In this document: positions 1,979 through 63,608 of the stretch, one piece after another | How positions within the stretch are numbered: position 1 is the first letter of the stretch | Layout of the letters: every line of letters starts with the position of its first letter | Assembly: GCF_030684315.1 (NCBI RefSeq) | Contig: NC_081365.1 | Location: 39,268,985-39,332,984 of the forward strand | Source of the DNA: Stegostoma tigrinum | Taxonomy: Eukaryota | DNA length: 64,000 nucleotides | Reading direction: 5' to 3' | The notes under the pieces: generated by a model | Told to the model about the DNA's origin: nothing | Database searches by the model: none | What the model saw: the letters and a program-made list of their open reading frames with translations, nothing else | Position numbers and translations under genes: made by a program

Positions 1979-2389
1979 CTGGTTGTTGTACAGTAACAAA
2001 AGTCAGTCCAGACTGATCCTCCCCCAGTTTATACCAAACATCATTGGGGTCAAGTAGCCACTCTTCCACATAACAATAATAACTGCCACTATCATATGTC
2101 GTTGCTTTCTTCAGTATCACATTATATAGATCATTAGTAGCTTTTTCAAACTGTAGTCTATCCCTCAGACTTGCACTGTTATTAGGGGAGCTGCCGTATT
2201 CAAAAACAGAATCCCGATTCAGGTGGAGAATGGGGTATTGTTCTTGCTCCTCTATTTTCTGGGAATACCATGTCACAGATATTTGGGAGTCCAGGTTAGT
2301 ACGGTTGCTGATCTTGCATTCCAGTTGAATTTGGCTGTCCTCAGGCACAGTGATACTTTTCTCAATTTTGACAGTTTGCAAGTTGCTTT
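1979..2389 (-). CDS. IGSF3: IGSF3 exon, Ig domain 7 (411 bp)
   Basis: Acceptor cctacag|AAAGCAAC gives (E)SNLQTVKIEKSITVPEDSQIQLECKISNRT...DSGSYYCYVEEWLLDPN. Donor CCA G|gtaccg. Confidence 0.9.
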
Positions 2390-5300
2390 CTGTAGGTACA
2401 AGAGAGTTTTTACTTTATTAAAAGGAAACCTGAAAGCCTTTAAATATTATAGAAGCTTGGTTCCATTAGTCCCCAAACACACTAATTTATTGGATATTCA
2501 ATTCAAATACATTAACTTGATGGAGTTAGGAGAAGTGATTTCTGAAAACACACATAGTTTAACTTTTACATCCTGATGCATCAAATGGAATAAAAGTGAA
2601 ATCGCTGGAAATCACAGCATCACAAAATAGTTACAACATGGAAAGAGAGACTCAGCCCATCATGCCCGTGCTGGCTCTTTGTAAACATTAATCAGCTTTT
2701 TCCACTCTCCTGTCATTTCTCCATAGCCCTACAATTATTTTCTTTTTGGATAATTTTCTAACCTTAGTTTTGAAATTCATGATTAAATCTGTCCTATCTT
2801 CTCTCTCAGATAGTGCATTCTGGATGCCAACCTCTTGCTGTATGAAATCTTTTCCTCACATCATCTCTGATTTTTTTTTTGAAAATCATCTTAAATCACT
2901 GCCCTCAGGTTCTGGATCTTTCTTTAAACAGGAACTTATACATTCTCCAGAATCCCCATGATCCTGAACACTTTTATGAAATGTCTGCTTAACCTTCTCT
3001 TTTCTAAAGAAAACAGACCTATTATGTCCAATTGATCTACATAACTTCTGTGCATAGAATCCCTACAGTGTGGAAACAGGCCCTTCGGCCCAAAATGTCC
3101 ACACCAACCCTTGGAGCATCCCACCCAGACCCATCCCTCTATAGCCCACCTAAGCTACACATCCCTGAACAGTACAGGCAATTTAGCATAGCCAATCCAC
3201 CTAACCTGCTCATCTTTGGACTGTGGGAGGAAACCAGAGCACCCAGAGGAAACCCACACAGGCTCGGGGAGAACATGCAAACTCCACACAGACAGTCAGC
3301 CGAGAGTGGAATCGAACCTGGGTCCTTGGTGCTGTGAGGCTGCAGTGCTAACCACTGAGCCACTGCGCCAACCAAATCTTTGTAAATTTTTTCTGCAAGC
3401 ATTCCATTGCCTTCACATCCTTCTGAAAGCACTTTGCCCAGAATTGGCTGAACCAGTGTTTTGCAAAGGTTTTTCATAAATTGCTTCTTTTTCTACTTGA
3501 TGCCTATATTCAAAAAGTACAGGAGCTCAGATACTTTATTGGCCATTTTCTCAACTTCTCCTGCCAGTTTCAATGAGTTTGGAGAAAGAGAGATGGAGTT
3601 TGTTCTTCTCCCCAGGTCTAGAGCCAGCGAGGCATTTAATTGGGCAAGAGGGTATCTGGTGGGGACCACACCACCTTCCTGCCTCTGTCCTGATGAAGTC
3701 TGGATTGGGAAGGATCACCGATGGCCTTCCTTTCCTGACGCCAATTTAGGTGAAAGCTACGTGCAGCAACGGTAGAGGTTCCAATGGCCACAGTAAGCCA
3801 GCTAGTATATTCTGTACAAATGCATGAATCCAAAATGAGTTATTGCACTGCTTTCACAATTGTTGGTTGCTGTATCTCTGCTATTGCTGTCACTTTGGCA
3901 GAATCCAGGCAGAGATCTTTTGCTGTAAGTACTCAACCTATGTACTTGACTTAATGAAATCTTCAAATGTGTCTTATTCAGCTTCATCTTCATCTGATGA
4001 ATTCTCTCTTCAGTATCACACTAGATTCTGATTGTGGTCTGTAATGGCTTCATCCATTGTGTTTCCACATATGTAGACTAGTAGGTCATCCATTATGTCT
4101 TCTAATTCAAGAAGATCACTGACTTCCTTGTGCTGTCTACTTTGGAAATGCCAAGTGGTATGAACAACTATCTGTAAATCTGAATGGGTTTTCATTTAGC
4201 TTCACTTATCAGTAACTTTTTTTGCATCAAGGGCAGGCTCTGGTAAAATCTATTCATTGGGAAATAGCATATCGGAAATTAAGTAGGCCATTCAGCCCTT
4301 TGAGCCTGCACCACTATCCAATGTGATCATGGTTGATATCTAATTTAGTACCCTGTTCCTGCTTTCTTCCCATATCCTTTGATCCCTTTAGTCCTACGAA
4401 CTATATCTACAACTTTCTTGAAAGTCTTCAATATTTTGCGTCTCTGGCAGAGAATTCAACAGGCTCACCACTCCTTGGGTGAAGAAATTTCTTCTCATCT
4501 CTGGCCTAAAAAGCCTACCCCATATCCTTAAACTATGACCCCTAATTCCAGAGTCCCTGGTCACCAAAAACACGTTTCCTGTATCTACCCTAGCTAATTC
4601 TGTTAGAAATTTCCTAGATTTCTATGCTATTCCCCTTCCTCCCATTCTTCTAAACTCTGTTGAATATAGTCCTAAATGATTCAGACATTCCTCATACATT
4701 AGTCCCACCATCCCAGGAATTAGTCCAGCAAAGCTTCTTCGCACTCAATAGCCAGAAAATCCGTGCTTAGATAAGGAGGCCAAAACTGCACACAATGTCC
4801 CGGGTGTGGTCTTACCAAGACTCTGTGCTGTTGCAGTAAGTCATCCAAACCCAAGTAATTGAATCCACTCTGTATGAAGGCCAACATATCTTTTGCCTTC
4901 TTCGCTACTTGCTTACCTTCAGTGACTTGTGTAAAAGATCTCATTGCACCTACGTTCATCCCCATTCAGATAATAATCTGCCTCCCTCTTTTTTACTATC
5001 AAAGCGGATAGTCTCACATTTATCCACATTATAGTAACTCTACTATGTATTTGTCCACTTAACGTGTCCAAATCACACTGAAGCCTCTTTGTTTCCTTCT
5101 CACAGTATATCCATGCATCCATTTTGGTGTCATCTGCAAACCTGGAGATGTGACACTTAAATCATTAATATATATTGTGAATAGCTAGGGTCCAAGCGCT
5201 GATGCTGTGGTACTCCATAAGTTCAGAGGCTAGTATCCCTTCACCAAGTCATCCTTCATTTAAATATAAAGTGTCCTTGACACTGGTTTAGCTTCCTCGG

Positions 5301-8300
5301 AGCTAGCTGTCAGAGTGAACAGAACCTCTGACACTTCTGTTCTTATCTGTCAGCCAAAGCTGCCTGATTGAGGCTGTTAATTTGCCCGTTCAATCTGGGA
5401 GCTCATATTCTTTGAGATCCACCTGGTTGACCTTGTTATAATCATCGCACCTGGTACTCGGAAAAAGACTTGTTTACTCCTACTCTTTGTTTCCTGTCTA
5501 CAAACAGTTCTTGATCCAATTTAGCATGCACTCTTCAATCCCATGTGCTTTAATTTTGCATGCTAATCTCTTATGCAATACCTTATCCAAAGTTACTGGC
5601 TCTAGGGGAGTCCAAAACTAGAAGGCATAGGTTTAAGGTGAAAGGGGATGGGACCCTTTCCACACAAAGGGTGGTGTGTATATGGAATGAGCTGCCAGAG
5701 GCTGTACCTTGTCCACGTTACTAGGCGCATCCTTGATGAATTCCAGCAGATTTGGAAGGGTGACTTCTCCTTCGTAAGCCCATATTGACTCTGTCTGATC
5801 CTGTCATTATTTGATGGTTGGCATGGCATAGTGAGATATCTTCAATGATTTATGGAGATCCTTTAGATCTACGCATACTCTCAGCTTTCCAGTTTAATTT
5901 GCTACTACTATGCTATCCTCATCAGATGCTGAGTTAGTCTTACACTCTTATTTATACCAAAATGACATTCACCAGGAAGATATAGTGTCATACAGCACAG
6001 GAACAGACCCTTCAGCCCAACTTGTCTGTGCTAATGCGGTTTCCTAAACTGAACTAGTCCCATTTGCCTCTGTTTGGTCCATATCCTTCTTAAACCCTTC
6101 CTATTCATGTACCTGTCCAAATGTCTTTTGAGTGTTGTAATTCTACCTGTCCCTACCACTACCACTGGCAGCTCGTTTCATATACACACCACCCTCTGTG
6201 TGGGAAAGTTGCCCTTCAGGTCCCTTTCCCCTCTAACCTTCAGCCTATGCCTTCTAGTTTTGGACACCCATACGTTGGGGAAAAGACCCTGGTTGAATGG
6301 CTTATCTCTACCCATTACGATTTTATAAGACTTTATAAGGTCATGCCTCAGCCTCCTACATTCCAAGGAAAAATCTCAGCCTATCCAGCCTCGTCAGACC
6401 AGTAACTGCATCCTTGTAATCTTCAAGGGCCTGTTCATCAGTCAATGGTTTGGTGGCCAGCAAAATATTGCAAATCAATTTTGGCAAATGTAGTGTTTTC
6501 AGTCCAATCAAATCAGCTGAGATAAATGGATTTTGCTTACTATCACTAACAGGTCTTCAATTTCCTCCCTGCTTTGTGCTCTCACCTTCATTTGTCCTCT
6601 TGGGATGGAAATTGTTCCATCACATAGCCTCAAACGTACCTTCAAAAGTTTCATGTTTCATGTTACCTTCTTGAGCAATCACACAAGTCCTCAAAACTCA
6701 TGCTGTTGCATAAAGTACTGGTGTCTATTTGGTGTTTCATATTCGTTTGATACTCTTCTTCTGCAGTCATCACTCTAATAACCACAACCAATTTAATATC
6801 TTTAGATCCGATGAAACCAACCTGTATTATGTTGTAGAGCAATTTATCAGAATAAACGGCTGACATCTCTCCAAAAGCCATCTGTACAGGCTTACTTTGC
6901 TTATTTCTAGCTAAACACTGCCATGTAAAGTGATTCAGCTTCCTGCAATGAAAGCATTGTTTCCCCAACACTGGATATGTATTTTTTTCTTTTGAATGGA
7001 GGCCTCTGCAATAATTAAATCCAGTTCTCAGGCCTTGATCATTCTGCTGGCTCTTGAACAAATATTTCTTCCTTTTTTCCAATATGTTGTTCTCATTTGA
7101 CTTGGACTATGAATCAATAAATGTGGAGCTAGAAAATCACAGCAGGTCAGACAGCATTTGAGGAGCAGGAGAGTCAATGTTTTGGGCCAAAAGCCTTCAT
7201 CAGGGCTGACGAATGATTTTGGCCCGAAACATTGATTTTCCTGCTTCTCGGATGATGCCTGACTTGCTGTGCTTTTCCGGCTCCACATTTATTGACTCTA
7301 GCTTCCAGCATCTGCAGTCCTTTGTGTCTCCATGATGTGGAATATGTCTTAGTGTAATGTAACGTTTTATCTATGCTCCCATTATTACACAAGATTGACT
7401 ACCTCAGAATTTCTGCACAAGTCAAGGGCTTTCTTGAGAATGAGTTTCTCTTCTCTCTTTTGATGTGCTTTCACATTGGGATCTCTTATGCCTAAAGCAA
7501 TCCTATCTCTGGTGAGATCATCTTTGAGTTGTCCAAACACTCAATATGGCAGCGCTATCACATACAGAACAACAGTGTCCCTCCCCTAAAGCTCTGATAT
7601 ACAACCGTACCATTCATTAGTATTATTGATGTGGGGTTTAAAGTGTGGTTTCAAACTCTCTCCTGTCTGAGTCTTCTTCTCAGTGCCATTTCAGGTGCAA
7701 TGGACTTAAGTAGCACTCGTTTCTCAGTATTGATAAGAGGGTTGTATCTCTTATTTGCCCAATTATGTTATTTAATTCTTTATCTATTTCATACTTCTGT
7801 GAGTGAGAGAAGAAACCAATTCTGTCTCCTCCATCATTTCCATAGGAGAAGGGATCAGAGAATTAACAGCCATTGTGATTCTTCCAGCACTTTAAAGTTG
7901 CAGACTGTGGTGATTTAATTCATCCTTATGTAAGTTTTCTTTTAACTGGAGCTGACTCTCTTGCAGGTCTGAAAATTCACTCAATTTCAACTGCACTGTT
8001 TTGATAGAGATAGTAGGAACTGCAGATGCTGGAGAATCTGAGATAACACGGTGTAGAGCTGGATGAACACAGCAGGCCAAGCAGCATCATAGGAGCAGGA
8101 AAGCTGATGTTTTGGGCCTAAATCCTAAGATCCTTCTTCTGAAGGCGGGTCTAGGCCGGAAACATAAGCTTTCCTGCTCCTATGATGCTGCCTGGCCTGC
8201 TGTGTTCATCCAGCTCTACACCGTGTTATCTTACACTCTTTTGACATCATGTTTTTAAGCAATTTATCTAATGGCTTCCACAAACTAAAATGAAAGCAAC

Positions 8301-11300
8301 CAACAGAAGATGTGGAGATCACATGACAATGGTAAGGTCACTAGTATATTACGTCCTAATGAATTTCTCCACGTAGGCCTCTGCAGGGTGCATTGATGGC
8401 TGCTAAATTGATTTCTGGTGGCTCAGCCTGATATGGAGAACCAATGGCCTCTAAATGGCCAGCAGTTCTCAGGGAAAAGAAGTGTCCTTGTTCCCAGGGA
8501 AGGTGGCCTGCTGGCCTCCCAAGTGGCCAAGGATGCAATGAGCATTCTCAAAAGTGGGTGACACAGTTCTCCACCTGTTCTGTTGGGCAAGGCCCTTATT
8601 GTCCAGATTAAATTCCACCAATAACCCCAGGACCTTCTTCTAGGTCCATATGCAACTTTTTTTTCCAAATTGAATCTTTTATTTTATATCACATGCAAGG
8701 TATTTGTTTAACAAGGTGTGGAGCTGGCTGAACACAGCGGGCCAAGCAGCATCAGAGGGGCAGGAAGGCTGACATTTTGGGACTAGATCCTTCTTTTCTG
8801 AAGAAGGGTCTAGGCCTGAAACGTCAGCCTTCCTGCTCCTCTGATGCTGCTTGGCCCGCTGTGTTCATCCAGCTCTATACCTTATTATCTCAGATTCTCC
8901 AGCATCTGCAGTTCCTACTATCTCTGAAACAAGGTATTTGTTTGGTAGCTTTGGAGCTGAATGGGGTCAATCAATCAGTTAACATATCAAATGAATCAAA
9001 TTTCTCACATCAGTTCTATCTCTGAATTTAAAGTCAAGAAAATGACAGCTAACACCAGGGTTCAAATGTAGAATGTGTAGCATACTGCTTGTGCACTTGT
9101 GCTACAAATAACACTGGCATGAAATCCCTTGGAAAATTTTAATTGACTTTAAAATATAATTAGATAGATTACTTCTGTCAGGGAAGAGAATATGTAAAAT
9201 AGTATTCTTCTTTGATCCTGAATGTTTCAAATTGTTAACATTGTTCAACACGCAAATTACTAAGTATCATGACATGCATTCAGTCCTCACTTTTCTCTCT
9301 CTTTTTAAAATTCTGTATTACTCTTTAAGCAACAAGACGGCATAGCTTCTGCCAATGCAGTTATCAAGTGAAATACATGGCTAGCACTCAGACCTTCACT
9401 TCTGTCTTGCTTGTGAGGCAACTAGCATCATTGCACAGAATATTTCTCACAAAGACAAAGTTGATTCAATACCTGGGCGCTGGACAGTGACAATGGTCTG
9501 CCCAGATGTGTCCTCTCCAATTTTATACCAGATGTTGTTGGGGCTTAGAAGCCATTCCTCCACATGACAATAGTATTTCCCACTATCATTAATGTTAGCT
9601 TTTAGTAAGACCAAGGTATAATGCCCAGTAAAAGGTTTTGCAACTTGCAGTCTCTCCTTCTTCTTGTCTCTTCCTAACCAGTCCTTGTGTTCAACCACAG
9701 AGTCACGGTTTGATTTGAGAATCAGCTTGTCAGCTTTCTCCAGTGATTTCTGAACGTGCCATTGCACAGAGAATTGAGAGTCTGGTCTTGTTTGATTTGT
9801 GATGTAGCAGTTTAAATGAATATTGTCATTTACTTTCACAACAATGTTCCTCTCTGCTTGATTGACTTTTAGTTTACATTCTGTAAGAGAAAAAAAGATT
9901 AGGTCACATATAGAGCAGTGGTAAATACAAAATAAAAACTAATTTAAAAAAAGCTTTTCTTTCTTTCATACATTTTAGCAACCACAATAGTCTGCATTCT
10001 GCAGTCAGCGGTGAAGTGACAACATTTTCTTGACATTAATTTGAATCTGCTGTCAAGTCAAGTGAATCTCCAGGTATCCAGCAACAGTAAGCTCACCAAG
10101 CAGAATCACCAGTCAATTGCATTGAAGTATTCTAATAGACAGCAAACTAAGAAGTAAATTGCACTGATTATTCCTCATAATGATACTTCACAGATAGCGA
10201 AAATAACTGAGTCATACATATGGGATTCAGGCAAAATCTCAATGATCATGGACAAGATGAACAAGCTGTGAAAAACATAAAAATGTGTCTTGTTTTATAT
10301 CACAATGGAGAAATTTGGCTTACCACAAGTATTACATCAGTTTTCCAGGGCCAGAATGGTTGGTCAGCAGCAATGATAAATCTGGTAGGCCAACAAAGCC
10401 CAGTTAGGCCTTGTTCAATATGACGGAACATTTTCAACGGTTTTAACACAAACCCAATGGCATAAAAAGGCAAGTTCTCATCAGTGATAACAAGGTGTAG
10501 AGCTGGGTGAACATAGCAAGCCAAGCAGCATCCGAGGAGCAGGAAAGCTGACATTTCGGGTCTAGGCCCTTCTTCAGAAGGGTCGTTTCAGAAGAAGGGT
10601 CTAGACCCGAAACGTCAGCTTTCCTGCTCCTCTGATGCTGTTTGGCCTGCTGTGTTTATCCAGCTCTACATCGTGTTATCTCAGATTCTCCAGCATTGGC
10701 AGTTCCTACTATCTCTGTAACAAATTCCCATCAGTGTTGTTATTTCTAATAGTTTTCAGTTAGGTGATTCTTTACTTTTGCTAACATGCCTTGTTAAAGT
10801 ATCATTCACAGCAATTACTGGATTTCCATGTTCAATTACAAACATGCAGACTCCAGAAATCGCTGTCAGTTTCAGAGGAGTATTTATGATGAATGCTGAC
10901 AGTTTTGTAATCACTATTGATTATTAAACATCATTATCCAAGTCATCTTCTTCTACAGCTGGAGCAAGGTCTTCACAAAAATCTGCACTGAGATAATTTA
11001 CTTCCAAGCAAGACAACTTTCTTCTCTACCTCATCTGTACATTCCTCTCAGTGCTTGCTACAGGATTACAGTGATTTAATTCACGTAGAGCAATCAACAG
11101 GGTTACAAAGATACTTTATAACTAATACTAAATAAAAACCAAAAGAACTGCGGATGCTGTAAATCAGGAACAAAAACAGAAGTTGCTGGAAAAGCTCAGC
11201 AAGTCTGGCAGCATCTGTGAAGAAAAGTCAGAGTTAAGGTTTCAGGTCTGGTGACCCTTTCCTCAGAATTAATATCACTTGGAAGACTTAACTTCGAAAG

Positions 11301-17300: not shown

Positions 17301-20300
17301 GTGCCAAATAGGGAAAATGGGGAAAGAAAATGGCAAGAAAGATAAAATTAATGGCTCTTTACTTAAATTTACATAGCATTCAGAATAAACTAATGTTAGT
17401 AGTAGCACAAATTGAGATTAATAGGGTAACAATCATTACAGAGACATGGGTACAAGGACATTAAATCTAGGAACTAAATATTCATTGGTATATGGACTAA
17501 GGCAGTTGGTTAGCTCAGTTGTCTGGGCAGCTGGCTTGCAATGCAAAGTAATGCCAACAGTATGAGTTCATTTTCAGCACCAGCTGAGGTTACCATGAAG
17601 GATTGTCCTTCTCAACAACTCCCCTCATCTGAGGAGTGGTGATCTTCAGGTTAAACAACTACCAGTCATCTCACACTCAACACAAAGCAGCCTTATTGTC
17701 TGGTAAGAGTTTGGTACCTTTACATTTATCTGATATATGACTGTTCAAAAGAAAATACAGTAAGAAAGGAATGGTGTGGTCACTTTGGTTGTATGAGATA
17801 GAATAGGTATGATTGCAAGAAATGATGTTGGATTAGAAAATATAGACTCTGTATGTATGGAGATAAGAAATAATAACGGGAATAAAACACTGGTGGGAGT
17901 AGTCTCTAGGCTCCCTAACAATTGCTAATGACAAATACACTATGACAAATAATAAATGGAGAGTTAATGAGGGCATTAAACAGGCAGTATATTAATCATA
18001 GGTGATGTTAATCTTTGTGTAGATTGGAAAAAATCAAATTGGCAGAGGTAAAATTAATAGGAAGAATTAATAGGCCATATTTTAGACAGTTTTCGAGAAC
18101 AATGTGTCGCTGATTGAACTAGTGATCAGGCTATTTTGAATGTGTAATGAGGGAGGTACAATAAAAGATCTCAGAGTAAAAGATCCCTGAGGAAACAATA
18201 TCTATAACATGGTAAAATTTGGCATTCAATTTGAGTGTGAGAAACTTGAACAGAAACAAGTGTTAAATAAGATAATTACAAAGGAATGAATTCATAGTCG
18301 GATAAAATGAACTGAGAAATTAGAGTCAATAAATGTGGAGCTGAAAAAGCACAGCTGGTCAGACAGCATCAGAGGAGCAGGAAAGTCAACATTTTAGGCT
18401 GAAACCATTTGTCAGGACTATGGAGGGGGATAGGAGTCCAGACATAAATAGAGGGAGTGCAGTGGGGCTTGGGGGGAGGGTAGGTAGGATAGTGATAGGT
18501 GGATGCAGGTAGGGGGTTTTTGCGATTGGTCCGTGGGAAGGATGAAGCGTATAGGTGAGTAGGAAGATGGACAGGTTGGGGGTGGAGAGATTTTGAAGCT
18601 GTAATGCAGGCAGGGGGTTATTGTGGTTGGTGAGTTAGAAGGGTAGGAGTGGATTGCAGAGTCAGAAGATGGAAAGGTTGGGGGAGGAAAGAATTTGAAG
18701 CTGGTGGTCAGTATTCAGGCCATTGGGCTATAAGATCCTAAGGCAAAATATGAAGTGTTTTCCTCCAGTTTATGTTTGGCATCGCTGTGACAGTGGAAGA
18801 GGCCAAGAATGGAAATGTCACCAGAGGAGTTAAAGTGGATCGCAACCGGAAGGTTGGGTTGGTTGGTGCAGAGTCCAGATGCTCTGCAAACCAGTCCCCA
18901 AGTCTGTGATAATAAAATGTGAGGCTGGATGAACACAGCAGGCCAAGCAGCATCTCAGGAGCACAAAAGCTGACGTTTCGGGCCTAGACCCTTCATCAGA
19001 GAGGGGGATGGGGAGAGGGAACTGGAATAAATAGGGAGAGAGGGGGAGGCGGACCGAAGATGGAGAGTAAAGAAGATAGGTGGAGAGAGTATAGGTGGGG
19101 AGGTAGGGAGGGGATAGGTCAGTCCAGGGAAGACGGACAGGTCAAGGAGGTGGGATGAGGTTAGTAGGTAGATGGGGGTGCGGCTTGGGGTGGGAGGAAG
19201 GGATGGGTGAGAGGAAGAACCGGTTAGGGAGGCAGAGACAGGTTGGACTGGTTTTGGGATGCAGTGGGTGGGGGGGGGAAGAGCTGGGCTGGTTGTGTGG
19301 TGCAGTGGGGGGAGGGGACGAACTGGGCTGGTTTAGGGATGCAGTAGGGGAAGGGGAGATTTTGAAACTGGTGAAATCTCCCCTTCCCCTACTGCATCCC
19401 TAAACCAGCCCAGTTCGTCCCCTCCCCCCACTACACCACACAACCAGCCCAGCTCTTTCCCCCCCCACCCACTGCATCCCAAAACCAGTCCAACCTGTCT
19501 CTGCCTCCCTAACCGGTTCTTCTTCTCACCCATCCCTTCCTCCCACCCCAAGCCGCACCCCCATCTACCTACTAACCTCATCCCACCTCCTTGACCTGTC
19601 CGTCTTCCCTGGACTGACCTATCCCCTCCCTACCTCCCCACCTATACTCTCTCCACCTATCTTCTTTACTCTCCATCTTCGGTCCGCCTCCCCCTCTCTC
19701 CCTATTTATTCCAGTTCCCTCTCCCCATCCCCCTCTCTGATGAAGGGTCTAGGCCCGAAACGTCAGCTTTTGTGCTCCTGAGATGCTGCTTGGCCTGCTG
19801 TGTACATCCAGCCTCACATTTTATTATCTTGGAATTCTCCAGCATCTGCAGTTCCCATTAACCCCAGTCCCCAAGTCTGTGTTGAGTCTCCCTGATATAG
19901 AGGAGACCACATCAGGAGCAAGAGATTTAGCAGACAAAGTTAGATGAAATGCAGGTGACACTCTGTGGGATTTGGAAGGATTGTTTGAGGCCTTGGATGG
20001 AGGTGAGAGGGGAAGTTTAGGGGCAGGTGTAGCTCCTCCTGCGGTTGCAGAGAAAGGTACTGGGTGTGGTGTAGGGGTTGGTGGGGAGTGTGGAGCTGAC
20101 AACAAGAGCTTTAAATATATAAAAGGAACAAAAAGACTAAAAAGTGAACATAAGCCCCTTAGAGAATGAGGCTGAGGAAATAATAATTGGTGGACTATGA
20201 AATGAAACCATGAGGAACCGAATAAACACTTGGCATCAGATTTGATGGTAGGAAACACTTTTGGTATTACAAAATTAATAAATAATCAAGGGCACGAAGT

Positions 20301-35245: not shown

Positions 35246-35329
<84 letters not shown>

Positions 35330-55157: not shown

Positions 55158-57432
55158 AATTGTGGGAAGAATAGCTGTAGGAAATATAGGGTTACAGTGA
55201 TAGGGTAGGCATGTGGATCTGGGTGGGAAGCTCTTCGGAGGTCAGTGTGGCCTCAATTGGCCAAATGACCTGCTTCCACACTAGAGGGCTTCTATGATTC
55301 TATAATTACGGACCAAGACCCCACTCCCAAAAATGTAAGGAGAAACTTAATAACCTCACCAATGCAGCAAGAGAATGCAACAAGCCAATTAAGTACCCTG
55401 CCAAATTCCTGATGCCTTTAGAGAAAAGTCAACATTGCTCAATGTTGAGGTTAACCTCACTGGAAAGTCACATTGTTCCATGTACAAGGAAACCTCTTTG
55501 CCTCAGACCTGTCTGTTTAACATTCCCTCACATCTTGCAATGCATGCTGACCCTTTGAAACCTGTCTCCAACGTTTCATTCTTCTATTTCACTGCACACT
55601 GACAGTCAAATGAGATAAGCATCAGAGTGCTATTGCTATTTAATATTTATGAATTCTTCTTTGAGTAGAAGTTGGCATACGATGACACAGAGCAGCAGGC
55701 CACAGACAGAGATCTCCAATGCACCAAGCAAATGACTAAGTTAGAGGACAAGACCACACCTACCTAGGGAATAACATTTCTCAGACTGGAAAACCTGGAA
55801 GCTGTGAGTTCAAAATCAGTTTGGGATGCAGAATTATTGTACTGGAGACTTTAGTTAAAGAAATAGAGACAAAACATACAGAGCGTGTGACTAAAAGACA
55901 ATGAGGATAGCAAGGAGTGACAGCAGAAATCTAGTAGTGCAAGCTTTTCTTCTATTCCTTCAGAATTATGAAGCTATGAGGTGAGAAATGGTAAAAATTA
56001 AGCTGACAGTGGCCTTGCACTCTCCCATTGCCCATCACTTTCATTATGACCAGCCAGAGTCAAGTGTTTGGTAATCAGGAACATGCTTCAGATGGTGAAC
56101 TGTTATTGAGTTAATTACTGAGCTCAAAGACTCTAAGGGTTTAATGTTTGATAACAGAGTGGAGTGGAGTAAACTGAATGAAGGCCAAGGTAGTATCACT
56201 GCTAAACAAGCTGCTGGTTTCAGCTTTTATGCTGCTGGGCCTGCTGTGTTCATCCAGCCTCACATTTCATTATGCTGGTTTCCTCTACAGGTTTTGCCGC
56301 AAGAAATGAACATCTTGCATGATTGGACTGTTCATTGATTTAGCAAATAAATCCCAATGTGTGCCCTACAGCCCTATCTGAATGGACTTGATGTAGACAG
56401 TGGTGGCATTTCTAATGTCTGCAATATTAACTTGTAGCATCCAATGCCTTCTCAATGGGAGGGCTAATTATTGGCCACCCAACTTTGGGGGATCATATGG
56501 AGATAACAATGACTCGTGGATTCTGAATCCAAAGCAACAATTTGAGTGCTTACAGGGTAACTAGTACAGGTTTTGATCAAGTCAGTTTTTCCATCTGTCA
56601 TGGGGCAGTAGAATTCCATTCTTGGTTCAGGTGGAAGTACAGCAGATTACACTAATATAGTGGTAGAAAGATGGAAAGTCTTTTTTTCTGTGTGGGCCAC
56701 CACAAGAGACTAAGCCAAGCCAGTTCTGGGTGTATTTGCAGCCAGAGTTAGTGCTATGTCTTTCCATCATACACTTCCATCATAACCAATGCCTCCCTTT
56801 TAACTCAAGCAGGACAAGATACTTCTTCCCACCCCACACACTGATGTATCCACAATCCTGAATGATCTACTCACATTCTCCAGACTGGTGGCACAATATC
56901 TACAGGGCTGATTGTGGTCCAGTCCCTGGACTCTGGTATGACGATGTGCTGAACTGACTATTTGACTAGAATCACATGCCCGCTAACTGCCTGTGGTGGT
57001 ACTACCTGTTTGGTTGCAGTCCCCCTTCAGTGAGGTCTGCATCATCTTGAGTGCCTGGCATCGTCATTTGTTCGAAACGCATGTGTTTGTTATGTAAACT
57101 ACTGACACTTGCAACATTGAAATGGGTATATGGTACCACTTCCTTGGCTATTCAATGTTCCCCACTGTCAAAAGCTGCCTACTTCATCCTCTGTGGTAAA
57201 AGGAAATGCAAGCAACAGAAGCTGGTAGCCTTGTAACTGAATACTAAAGACCATGAGCAGTTGAAAGCTATATGACCAAAAGACAGAGGCTGGTAGCCTG
57301 TAAATCAGTGCTGAATTAAGTGAGTGTGGGCTAAGAAAGCCATGTGAAGAATACAGAATGTGAGCGACTCCAAAGTGAACAGATGCTAATAATGGAAGCC
57401 AAAAGCCATAAGACGAATCCTGCGTAGATGCA

Positions 57433-59617
57433 AGATAATAAAGTGTGAAGCTGGGTGAACACAGCAGGCCAAGCAGCATCTCAGGAGCACAAAAGCTGAC
57501 CTTTCGGGCCTAGACCCTTCATCAGAGAGGGGGATGGGGAGAGGGAACTGGAATAAATAGGGAGAGAGGGGGAGGCGGACCGAAGATGGAGAGTAAAGAA
57601 GATAGGTGGAGAGAGTATAGGTGGGGAGGTAGGGAGGGGATAGGTCAGTCCAGGGAAGACGGACAGGTCAAGGAGGTGGGATGAGGTTAGTCGGTAGGAA
57701 ATGGAGGTGCGGCTTGGGGTGGGAGGAAGGGATAGGTGAGAGGAAGAACAGGTTAGGGAGGCAGAGACAGGCTGGGCTGGTTTTGGGATGCAGTGGGGGG
57801 AGGGGAAGAGCTGGGCTGGTTGTCTGATGCAGTGAGGGGAGGGGACGAACTGGGCTGGTTTTGGGGTGCGGTGGGGGAAGGGGAGATTTTGAAGCTGGTG
57901 AAGTCCACATTAATACCATAGGCTGCAGGGTTCCCAAGCGGAATATGAGTTGCTGTTGCTGCAACCTTCAGGTGGCATCATTGTGGCACTGCAGGAGGCC
58001 CATGATGGACATGTCATCTAAAGAATGGGAGGGGGAGTTGAAATGGTGCGCGACTGGGAGGTGCAGTTGTTTATTGCGAACCGAGCGGAGGTGGTCTGCA
58101 AAGCGGTCCCCAAGCCTCTGCTTGGTTCCCCCAATGTAGAGGAAGCCACACCGGATACAATGGATACAGTATACCACATTGGCAGATGTGCAGGTGAACA
58201 TCTGCTTGATGTGGAAGGTCATCTTGGGGCCTGGGATAGGGGTGAGGGAGGAGGTGCGGGGGCAAGTGTAGCACTTCCTGCGGTTGCAGGGGAAGGTGCC
58301 GGGTATGGTGGGGTTGGAGGGCAGCGTGGAGCGAACAAGGGAGTCACAGAGAGAGTGGTCTCTCCGGAAAGCAGACAAGGGTGGGGATGGAAAAATGTCT
58401 TGGGTGGTGGGGTCAGATTGTAGATGGCGGAAGTGTCGGAGGATGATGCGTTGTATCCGGAGGTTGGTGGGTTGGTGTGTCAGAATGAGGTGGATCCTCT
58501 TTGGGCAGTTGTGGCGGGGACGGGGTGTGAGGGATGTGTTGCGGGAAATGCGGGAGACGCGGTCAAGGGTATTCTCGACCACTGTGGGGGAAAGTTGAGG
58601 TCCTTGAAGAACTTGGACATCTGGGATGTGCGGGAGTGGAATGCCTCATCCTGGGAGCAGATGTGGCGGAGGCGGAGGAGTTGGGAATAGGGGATGGAAT
58701 TTTTGCAGGAGGGTGGGTGGGAGGAGGTGTGCTCTAGGTAGCTCCGTGACTCCCTTGTTCGCTCCAAACTGCCCTCCAACCCCACCACATCCGGCACCTT
58801 CCCCTGCAACTGCAGGAAGTGCTACGCTTGCCCCCACACCTCCTCCCTCAACCCTATCCCAGGCCCCAAGATGACTTTCCATATTCAGCAGAGGTTCACC
58901 TGCACATCTGCCAATGTGGTATACTGTATCCATTGTATCCGGTGTGGCTTCCTCTACATTGGGGAAACCAAGCGGAGGCTTGGGGACCGCTTTGCAGAAC
59001 ACCTCCGCTCGGTTCGCAATAAACAACTGCACCTCCCAGTCGCAAACCATTTCAACTCCCCCTCCCATTCTTTAGATGACATGTCCATCCTGGGCCTCCT
59101 GCAGTGCCACAATGATGCCACCCAAAGGTTGCAGGAACAGCAACTCATATTCCGTTTGGGAACCCTGCAGCCCAATGGTATCAATGTGGACTTCACCAGC
59201 TTCAAAATCTCCCCTTCCCCCACTGCATCCCAAAACCAGCCCAGCCTGTCTCTGCCTCCCTAACCTGTTCTTCCTCTCACCCATCCCTTCCTCCGACCCC
59301 AAGCCGCACCTTCATTTCCTACCTACTAACCTCATCCCACCTCCTTGACCTGTCCGTCTTCCCTGGACTGACCTATCCCCTCCCTACCTCCCCACCTATA
59401 CTCTCCTCTCTACCTATCTTCTTTTCTCTCCATCTTTGGTCCCCCTCCCCCTCTCTCCCTATTTATTCCAGAACCCCCACCCCATTCCCTTCTCTGATAA
59501 GGGTCTAGACCCGAAACGTCAGCTTTTGTGCTCCTGAGATGCTGCTGGGCCTGCTGTGTTCATCCAGCTTCACACTTTGTTATCTTGGATTCTCCAGCAT
59601 CAGCAGTTCCCATTATC
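57433..59617. mobile_element. Neptune-type PLE inverted dimer: minus arm 57433-58740, plus arm 58742-59617, both containing GIY-YIG endonuclease sequence
   Basis: CNRRKCYTC linker, NVVYCIHC..CGFLYIG(E)TKRRLGDRFAEH...VANHFN...GIN. 14-bp TSD cctgcgtagatgca (57419-57432, 59618-59631). 32-nt tail on the right arm. Confidence 0.92.
58871..59263 (+). pseudogene. Open GIY-YIG endonuclease domain of a 5'-truncated PLE (no RT)
   Basis: 130-aa ORF with VVY..YIGET..RL..R..EH..E...N catalytic-type motifs. Confidence 0.8.
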
Positions 59618-60484
59618 CCTGCGTAGATGCATATGTCTGTCCCTGTGCGTAAAGGGCCTTGAGAGAAACATGCAGGCAATTGCTGTCCCTGAGCTCCAAA
59701 GTCAAGTGTTGTTGGGATGTAGTGGTGTATGAATTACAACCAACAAGATGAGACTGGTTGTTTGTCCATGGGGACCTTGGTAGACAAAGTGTTGAGGAGG
59801 ATCGTGCCCATGCAGCGTAAAATGGAATATTGTTGAGAGGAAGCATTCTGGGCACTGGCTGGCACAAGCATTTGAGGAGCTCACAAATTCTCTTCATCTT
59901 TTCATTCCTTTCATTCCTCTCTCACCATGCCTCATCAGGGAGGGGAATAGTTTTCCCAAAGATTTCAAACATTTTCGTTACTAATAGTTTCTTTGCGCAC
60001 TTCACTTACTCCCATGTTTTAAAGGCTGACTGAGCAGCACAGCGATTCTCTTTGCATGTGTTTGTTGACAAGCAATGCTGCATACTTCAGTGAAGGAGTA
60101 CCAAATAAACAACAGTTGCATCTTTCCAGTTTTGTTGATTCGTCTGCTTTCTCATACTCTTCATGTTCTCCCTCCATGGGATCACCATCTGTATTGCAAT
60201 CAGTCTCTAGTGTAACAAATTGGAGGTCTCACTGGGTTAAAAAGTACTGCAACACATAATAGACAGGGGCGTACCAGAGGGGCTTGCATTAAATATCCAG
60301 GCATCTGAACCTTTCTTTCAGCACTCTTATGTTTGCACAATGGAATTGTTTCAAGTGAGCTTCACCATATCATTCATCCACTGCACTGAACCATGAAAAA
60401 CACAAACAAAATTTATCTCCAAGGAGCCTTTGCAGTGAAAAAATAACAAAGATTTATGGATCTGGAAATCAGAATCTGATTATC

Positions 60485-62940: not shown

Positions 62941-63414
62941 TTTGCGAGCAGAACATTCAATGCACAATCCACAGCTGTAATCCACAAGACCTCCATCTAT
63001 ATCCATGCAACCTAGAAAAGCCTGAAATCGTGTCCAATTGTCTACTGTGTGCAACTAGCTTAAACAGCAGAACACTGCTTCCCTGCATGTTCTAACAGTG
63101 AAGAGGAATTCATACCTTTTAAAGATATTAACAGTGCATAATACCGCAGAGAGCTGCAACAGATGGCAATCTCTCAAACAAGCTGTCATATCTGATGAGC
63201 AAAGGAAAATTGCAGCTATTCTTTACAATGAGCTCATTCTGGGTGGCAGGGACAGGCAACTAAAGAGGGGATATGACAACAATAAACAACTGTTTTTCTT
63301 CATTGTTATTCTATTGTGACTGATCTCAAATGTTAGCAAACTACATCACAAGACCCTCAGGTGATTCCTCCCATTGTAAGTTACATGTCTATCCTATTTG
63401 TTATTAAACCAAAC

Positions 63415-63608
63415 TCCATCTTCGGTCCGCCTCCCCCTCTCTCCCTATTTATTCCAGTTCCCTCTCCCCATCCCCCTCTCTGATGAAGGGTCTAGGTCCG
63501 AAACGTCAGCTTTTGTGCTCCTGAGATGCTGCTTGGCCTGCTGTGTTCATCCAGCCTCGCATTTTATTATCATGGATTCTCCAGCATCTGCAGTTCCCAT
63601 TATCTCTG
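63415..63608 (+). mobile_element. PLE (family A) 3' fragment with hammerhead (63478-63509) and tail
   Basis: Nearly identical to 19672-19860, with ctctgatgaagggtctaggtccgaaacgtcag and ending cccattatctc. Confidence 0.85.

What the first reader, a model, noticed from the sequence alone, without database searches (positions are those of the whole stretch)
57419..59631. One TSD, two different templates: the arms of the 2.2-kb PLE dimer look like different subfamilies
Seen: both arms lie within a single perfect 14-bp TSD yet differ by block features. The left arm has 3 copies of a 39-nt unit and the right has 1. They also differ at cagttccctctcccc vs cagaacccccacccc, and by an extra cct-type insertion near 59400. 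The left arm resembles the 18.9-kb and 63.4-kb copies. Inference: the two target strands were primed on two distinct RNA molecules, so PLE inverted dimers may arise by bimolecular twin priming rather than fold-back.
Basis: partly seen in the sequence, partly recalled or inferred. Interest (0 to 1): 0.7.

Follow-up and report, generated by a model that had tools for sequence, protein, structure and literature searches.

The report
Penelope twin insertion, later patched arm
This is one back-to-back insertion of a very common Penelope-type jumping gene whose two halves really do differ, but they were likely copied from the same source, and one half was likely overwritten later by a short stretch from a younger family member, so it is not good evidence that two different RNA molecules were used.

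Summary
Observation confirmed; the two-RNA reading is not supported. The 14-bp TSD, 3 versus 1 39-nt units, the GTT/GAA block and the CTC indel are real, and all are recurrent family polymorphisms. The insertion is one tailed plus one tail-less arm, as in 117 of 127 TSD-flanked dimers surveyed; an orthologous empty site is inferred in a related species. The left arm resembles the 18.9-kb copy only over 57502-57691 (100% identical, no private changes). Elsewhere it is old-type with 27.5 changes/kb, older than all 138 carriers of that haplotype (maximum 17.3/kb). The arms share 23 diagnostic alleles and one rare allele. In 34 young dimers arm discordance is 2.8% versus 18% across loci, and mixing rises with age. 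Best reading: twin priming from one source, then a later gene-conversion patch (0.6). Against this: it is the most discordant of 66 dimers, it needs more than one patch, and a family-wide rejuvenation test was negative. This scan noted the tailed/tail-less rule and mixed arms before, on other DNA. Structure and conversion between repeats are both known.

The parts
57419..57432 (.). Left copy of the 14-bp target-site duplication
   Evidence: single copy of the target in a related species inferred
57433..58743 (-). Left arm: 5'-truncated PLE copy (RT C-terminus, CX4CxxC linker, GIY-YIG, 3' UTR), tail-less end, 2 stops and a 1-nt deletion
   Evidence: maps to positions 2298-3609 of the 3639-nt unit in L257
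58744..59617 (+). Right arm: 5'-truncated PLE copy (linker, GIY-YIG, 3' UTR) with tail; 2-nt overlap with the left arm at the junction (58742-58743)
   Evidence: unit positions 2691-3639; no second locus spans this junction among 40 scored of 988 candidates
59587..59617 (+). 31-nt tail, on the right arm only; in full-length tandem copies it runs on into the 5' end of the next unit
59618..59631 (.). Right copy of the 14-bp TSD
57771..57884 (-). Three 39-nt units (the right arm has one, about 59210-59244); unit number varies within one haplotype background
57502..57691 (-). Likely conversion patch in the left arm: young-lineage alleles (no CTC, A at 57594, GTT block), 0 private changes in 173 scored sites, identical to 11 panel arms including both 18.9-kb arms; outer limits about 57450-57697
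58200..58217 (-). Second discordant block (right-arm counterpart 58876-58893); resembles a rare old lineage; not explained by the first patch
58155..58155 (.). Rare allele shared by both arms (right-arm position 58938); seen in 1 of 285 other arms
57502..57525 (-). Hammerhead-like core motif (CTGATGA...GAAA), read by eye; the right-arm copy at 59494-59516 lacks one core G
   Evidence: sequence; no Rfam hit and no significant fold
18908..19860 (.). Comparator: younger dimer of the same family, arms 0.5% apart, 18-bp TSD; of the lineage that matches the patch
63414..63608 (+). Comparator: short tailed solo copy of the younger lineage; starts downstream of the CTC site, so it cannot be the whole donor

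Best explanation
This is a single head-to-head insertion of a Neptune/Nematis-type Penelope-like element in which both cut target strands likely primed reverse transcription on the same source (likely one RNA), one at the tailed and one at the tail-less start, and the left arm was likely overwritten later over roughly 80-250 nt by a younger family member through non-allelic gene conversion. Shown: TSD, arm geometry, recurrent variants, the mosaic left arm, the survey counts. Inferred: twin priming, single source, timing and mechanism of the patch. The remaining differences (unit number, the 58200-58217 block, two 3' sites, about 37 rare or CpG changes) are likely slippage, further small patches and ordinary decay.
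For: (1) Patch looks younger than its host arm: 0 of 173 sites changed versus 25 of 910 (27.5/kb) elsewhere in the left arm; the 138 arms with the patch haplotype have median 5.0 and maximum 17.3/kb. Only 1 of 58 other old-background arms is clean in that window (2 of 59, one being the focal arm itself). (2) Shared background: the arms agree at 23 of 33 diagnostic sites; 2 of 120 old arms match all 23; all 17 arms within 2 mismatches carry the right arm's allele at 57594/59425, and all 16 callable ones carry its CTC. (3) Rare allele shared by both arms, 1 of 285 elsewhere. (4) 34 young dimers: 24 of 863 segregating-site calls discordant (2.8%; 8 in two deletions, 5 at the terminal site) versus 18.2% across loci; minor allele in both arms 93 times, in one arm 24 times. 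(5) With query regions masked, excess discordance relative to age-matched cross-locus pairs is 0.14, 0.16, 0.20, 0.36, 0.54 from youngest to oldest bin (n = 22, 15, 11, 10, 7); Spearman 0.40, p = 0.001. (6) Rare alleles shared within dimers 2.18/kb versus 0.069/kb across loci. (7) 7 of 81 long dimers end within 3 nt of the same 5' position versus 0.49 expected. (8) In print: the anole PLE protein cuts and extends both strands and has two RT start sites bounding the tail (PMC11167929); young-to-old conversion gives mosaic Alus (PMC8230782).
Against: The focal dimer is the most significantly discordant of 66 scored (10 of 33), and one patch explains only 4-5 of the 10 sites, so at least one more event is needed. 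The clean window was chosen after seeing it: over the haplotype-bounded interval the count is 2 of 225 versus about 6 expected (p about 0.05, my arithmetic), and its first 75 nt are clean in the right arm too. Pooled age of the two arms is 39 of 1662 sites (23.5/kb), but the right arm alone (14 of 752, 18.6/kb) is close to the 17.3 maximum of the patch lineage. A within-arm test across the family found no rejuvenation or ageing in anachronistic patches (ratios 0.92, 1.07, 0.86, 1.22, none significant). The age measure counts unshared private changes, which two different templates would also raise, so the age trend is partly circular. Matching arms show the same source locus, not strictly the same molecule. 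17 young loci were fetched because both arms matched one 43-mer, which favours concordance.
Confidence: 0.6

Rival explanations
1. One reading: each target strand was primed on a different RNA from a different source element (bimolecular twin priming), and the arms have differed since insertion.
For: 10 of 33 diagnostic sites differ, at both ends of the overlap; all named variants are shared family alleles; about 22% of panel arms are closer to either arm than its partner is; the related anole protein is predicted to be a dimer (PMC11167929). 11 of 65 other dimers exceed mutation background at p < 0.01 after masking.
Against: The left arm is not a member of the 18.9-kb subfamily: 15 old-type versus 4 young-type calls, 3 of them in the patch. 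Its 3' haplotype occurs in none of 224 panel arms. Shared background and a shared rare allele. No young dimer of 34 has arms from two sublineages along their length, read by eye, although at least five sublineages exist. Discordant dimers still share rare alleles interleaved with the discordant sites (L264, L194, L303).
Confidence: 0.15
2. Both arms began on one source, but one reverse transcriptase switched briefly to a second co-bound RNA during insertion (copy choice), giving a mosaic arm from the start.
For: The family's haplotypes are heavily reticulate; single segregating-site mismatches occur even in very young dimers (about 11 of 863 after removing deletions and the terminal site, against 0.3% background per site); the family-wide decay test did not show aged donors.
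Against: A patch made at insertion should have decayed like the rest of the arm, and its lineage should be as old as the insertion; neither holds here. Mixing should not rise with age, but it does.
Confidence: 0.15
3. One tandem transcript with two unlike units supplied one arm from each unit (L1-type intramolecular twin priming).
For: Full-length copies are partial tandems with an upstream pLTR of up to about 1 kb; L1 twin priming uses one RNA (10.1101/2024.08.27.596794).
Against: Direct pLTR pairs match in the five young cases (0 of 34, 0 of 7, 0 of 21, 0 of 13, 0 of 32 sites) and differ only slightly in two older ones (2 of 23, 1 of 9) (7 pairs scored). It does not explain an undecayed young-type patch.
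Confidence: 0.06
4. Fold-back: one cDNA snapped back and copied itself, and all differences arose afterwards.
For: Arms usually share a source; 7 of 81 long dimers are near-perfect palindromes at the junction.
Against: Here the right arm has a tail that the left lacks and the left has 392 nt upstream that the right lacks, so neither can be a copy of the other. Genome-wide the tailed arm is longer in 34 and the tail-less arm in 48 of 117 dimers.
Confidence: 0.04

Closest known systems
Canonical EN+ PLE insertion unit: inverted 5'-truncated copy, 30-40 bp tail at one end, TSD (PMC8557442, passages; Pen2a_Av in PMC3846280, passages)
   Same: Head-to-head truncated arms, tail at one end only (31 nt), TSD, partial tandems in full-length copies, C-terminal GIY-YIG.
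   Different: The passages read give no counts; here 117 of 127 TSD-flanked pairs are tailed + tail-less, TSD mode 14 bp. PMC3846280 explains such palindromes by self-priming on an antisense template, which the arm geometry here does not fit.
PAc, Poseidon of Anolis carolinensis, in vitro (PMC11167929, parts 1-2 of 4 read)
   Same: Both strands cut and extended; two RT start sites that bound the tail; tail at the pLTR-ORF junction; hammerhead motif in the pLTR.
   Different: This element has a CX4CxxC linker, which PMC8557442 assigns to Neptune/Nematis and says is absent from Poseidon. The parts read do not address whether one or two RNAs are used.
Non-allelic gene conversion between Alu subfamilies (PMC8230782, passages)
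   Same: Partial replacement of an old copy by a younger subfamily gives a mosaic with several coherent diagnostic changes; young-to-old was the commoner direction (40 vs 12 loci).
   Different: There the ancestral state was shown with orthologues; here it is inferred from the partner arm and from decay.
L1 twin priming (10.1101/2024.08.27.596794, outline and section 4 part 1)
   Same: Both target ends prime cDNA on one RNA, giving an inversion inside one TSD.
   Different: L1's second primer anneals internally, so the segments barely overlap; here both arms start within about 31 nt of the same 3' point and duplicate the same sequence.

Membership tests
EN+ Penelope-like element | Single ORF with RT and C-terminal GIY-YIG | tested here: met
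   Family copy L257 has a 1082-aa ORF with Pfam RVT_1 (E 2.6e-5) and GIY-YIG (E 0.004), both below the curated cut-offs; the left arm encodes the same C-terminus
EN+ Penelope-like element | [quoted passage not shown] | tested here: met
   VVYCIHCTRCGFLYIG in L257, with downstream His residues, read by eye (definition)
EN+ Penelope-like element | Partial tandem pLTRs, inverted 5' copy, 30-40 bp tail at one end | tested here: met
EN+ Penelope-like element | Hammerhead ribozyme in the pLTR | tested here: inconclusive
   Core motif present by eye; no Rfam hit; folds no better than shuffles; activity not testable
Neptune/Nematis type | CX2-5CxxC motif in the RT-EN linker | tested here: met
   CNRRKCYTC in the left arm and in L257 (definition)
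Neptune/Nematis type | RT phylogeny placing it in the clade | not tested
   No tree with reference elements was built
Penelope/Poseidon clade | Linker Zn-finger-like motif absent | tested here: not met
   Motif is present
Mixed-subfamily (two-template) dimer | Each arm belongs along its length to a different subfamily | tested here: not met
   Left arm 15 old-type and 4 young-type calls, right arm 14 of 14 old-type; shared background and rare allele
Non-allelic gene conversion tract | Bounded run of at least three coherent donor-type changes with acceptor-type flanks | tested here: met
Non-allelic gene conversion tract | Tract less decayed or younger than its host copy | tested here: inconclusive
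   0 of 173 versus 27.5/kb at this locus, but post hoc window and family-wide test negative
Non-allelic gene conversion tract | Unconverted orthologous allele | not testable with these tools
   Contigs break about 25 nt into the arm; the related species lacks the insertion

The most novel reading that the evidence does not exclude
Young Penelope particles re-cut old copies of their own family and write short cDNA patches into them (RNA-templated conversion), or a dimeric particle holds two RNAs and switches between them; either would make PLE families recombine through their own reverse transcriptase, and inverted dimers would be a built-in record of it because the partner arm preserves the original state.
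Probability: 0.2. Interest if true: 0.65.

Novelty: new member of a known kind. Interest (0 to 1): 0.3.

Why it matters
How PLEs build inverted insertions is still open. The survey argues that mixed arms in old dimers should not be read as proof of two RNAs: young dimers match, mixing grows with age, and here the odd stretch looks younger than the arm that holds it. The data favour two primings from one source. They also show that TSD-flanked dimers can serve as internal controls for measuring sequence exchange between repeat copies. The locus itself is an ordinary dead copy.

Tried and rejected
Private mutation as the cause of the block differences: rejected, all are recurrent. Copy of a pre-existing mixed dimer: no second locus spans the junction among 40 scored of 988 candidates. 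My first discordance counts (19 of 64; 27 of 84) were inflated because loci fetched with an arm as query are enriched for matching chance mutations; masking the query regions left 66 scorable dimers, and 18 were dropped. The early flat ratio over age, which seemed to favour mixing at insertion, vanished after masking. A pooled signal of higher mutation load near old alleles in young arms disappeared under a within-arm control and is not used. An A-to-G editing signature among shared alleles was not seen: A>G 17% of 102 shared, 10% of 30 dimer-only, 11% of 670 unshared. Rfam and folding gave no support for the ribozyme. Two DNA searches with the youngest lineage returned nothing, probably because its words are too common. 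Of 74 planned consecutive young regions, 20 plus 17 paired ones were obtained, so the unbiased young sample is small. Public contigs could not phase the patch. Six literature searches listed no paper on mixed-subfamily arms of PLE dimers; subscription papers and supplements were not seen.
Full report
Observation. The 14-bp direct repeat at 57419-57432 and 59618-59631 is perfect. Between the copies lie two 5'-truncated arms of one element, head to head: left 57433-58743 on the minus strand and right 58744-59617 on the plus strand, about 94% identical. The unit-number difference, the GTT/GAA block and the CTC indel are as described. In three runs of a related species, whose flank differs at 45 of about 520 positions, a contig passes through one copy of the target without entering the element; I infer an empty site, so this is one insertion.

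Identity. The left arm encodes an RT C-terminus, a CX4CxxC linker and a GIY-YIG domain with internal cysteines. A full-length relative, L257, has a 3639-nt unit and a 1082-aa ORF with weak Pfam RT and GIY-YIG hits. By the definitions in PMC8557442 (passages) this is a Neptune/Nematis-type PLE, not Poseidon; no tree was built. The family is very large: one 43-mer of the youngest lineage has 13,354 exact matches. The 31-nt tail on the right arm is the sequence at the pLTR-ORF junction of tandem copies.

Geometry. In 372 loci plus the window I found 206 complete head-to-head pairs; 127 have a TSD (12-20 bp, mode 14), and of these 117 pair a tailed with a tail-less end, 9 pair a tailed with an irregular end, 1 has two tail-less ends and none has two tails. 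Swapped flanks gave 0 of 100 TSD calls. The tailed arm reaches further 5' in 34, the tail-less in 48, and 35 are within 20 nt. Self-copying cannot give this, and here each arm has sequence the other lacks. Independent priming of both strands fits the anole PLE, which extends both strands from two start sites that bound the tail (PMC11167929, parts 1-2 of 4). This step is inferred.

Are the variants private? No. Each named variant is common in the family. But the haplotypes are reticulate, and the left arm's 3' haplotype is in none of 224 panel arms.

One source or two, genome-wide. Arms share rare alleles at 2.18/kb against 0.069/kb across loci. In 34 young dimers, 24 of 863 segregating-site calls differ (8 in two deletions, 5 at the terminal site) against 18.2% across loci; by eye none pairs two sublineages along its length. 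Seventeen of the young loci were chosen because both arms matched the 43-mer; the 20 consecutive regions fetched without that condition also showed no young-plus-old pair. Seven of 81 long dimers end within 3 nt of the same 5' position, against 0.49 by permutation, as expected if both copies ran off one RNA end. After masking query regions, excess discordance relative to age-matched cross-locus pairs rises 0.14, 0.16, 0.20, 0.36, 0.54 (n = 22, 15, 11, 10, 7; rho 0.40, p = 0.001; focal locus excluded). The age measure is partly circular, and matching arms prove a shared source locus rather than a shared molecule.

The focal dimer. It differs at 10 of 33 diagnostic sites, the strongest case of 66. 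At sites that separate young from old lineages the right arm is old at 14 of 14; the left is old at 15 and young at 4, three of them adjacent. Over 57502-57691 the left arm is identical to both 18.9-kb arms, and on both sides it returns to alleles shared with the right arm. That stretch has 0 private or CpG changes in 173 sites, against 25 in 910 elsewhere in the arm; the 138 arms with that haplotype have a median of 5.0 and a maximum of 17.3 changes/kb. One of 58 other old arms is clean there. The arms agree at the other 23 sites, matched fully by 2 of 120 old arms; all 17 near-matching arms carry the right arm's allele at the 57594/59425 site; and both arms share an allele seen in 1 of 285 others. 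Unit number varies from 1 to 3 within that background, so it is not a subfamily marker.

Against this reading. The clean window was picked after the fact; the haplotype-bounded interval gives 2 of 225 against about 6 expected (p about 0.05, my arithmetic). The right arm's own load (18.6/kb) is near the patch lineage's maximum. One patch accounts for only 4-5 of the 10 sites; the block at 58200-58217, the unit number and two 3' sites need further events. A within-arm test over the family found no decay difference in anachronistic patches. The unconverted allele could not be sought because contigs break inside the repeat.

Mechanism. Most likely (0.6): the endonuclease cuts both strands 14 bp apart, both 3' ends prime on one source at the two start sites, the truncated cDNAs join with 2 nt of overlap, and later a younger copy overwrites part of the left arm. 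Rivals: two RNAs from the start (0.15), a template switch during insertion (0.15), a tandem RNA with unlike units (0.06; direct pLTR pairs match in 5 young and differ slightly in 2 older cases), fold-back (0.04).

Known and new. The inverted-plus-tail structure is described (PMC3846280 and PMC8557442, passages), twin priming on one RNA is known for L1 (10.1101/2024.08.27.596794, outline and part of section 4), and young-to-old conversion is known for Alu (PMC8230782, passages). PMC4209133 (passages) reports minimal hammerheads in fish PLEs. Six searches listed no paper on mixed-arm PLE dimers; supplements were not read. Earlier notes of this scan report the tailed/tail-less rule and a mixed-arm case on other DNA; they are unreviewed and are not counted as support. 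Verdict: real, ordinary in kind, interest 0.3.

Noticed in passing
window 18676-20102: The young 18.9-kb dimer (18-bp perfect TSD) splits an older, 65-71% identical PLE fragment whose halves lie at 18676-18905 and 19867-20102.
   Followed up: partly
window 8009-8232, 8709-8922, 10486-10713: Three short stub dimers of 210-230 bp with the same tailed + tail-less geometry and TSD-like flanks.
   Followed up: partly
L298 6948-7701 and L109 2115-3228: Tandem array of units of about 499 bp made of the last 328 nt plus the first 171 nt of the element, spanning the hammerhead motif and tail; resembles a rolling or retrozyme-like multimer. A preprint on animal retrozymes as non-autonomous PLE sequences was seen only in a search listing.
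   Followed up: no
L257 982-5981: Very young full-length copy: intact 1082-aa ORF, upstream pLTR and inverted arm with no differences, 14-bp TSD; the family is probably still active.
   Followed up: partly
L289, L356, L008 junctions: Dimers whose arms end at the same 5' base carry 14-23 nt of filler at the junction, in L356 and L008 copied from nearby element sequence.
   Followed up: no
L125/L126 (G000:C2, about 17.5 kb apart) and L157/L158 (G000:C13): Identical arrangements of element copies at two places, probably segmental duplications or assembly duplicates.
   Followed up: no
L361 (G000:C1:9784180-9786030): A young dimer in which one arm carries the old-type CTC, a possible old-into-young patch.
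   Followed up: no
L274 1662-7037: Inverted arm and upstream pLTR begin at the same position (2768) next to a full unit, a palindrome at the 5' end of a tandem.
   Followed up: no
window 35248-35328: (TG)40 microsatellite.
   Followed up: no
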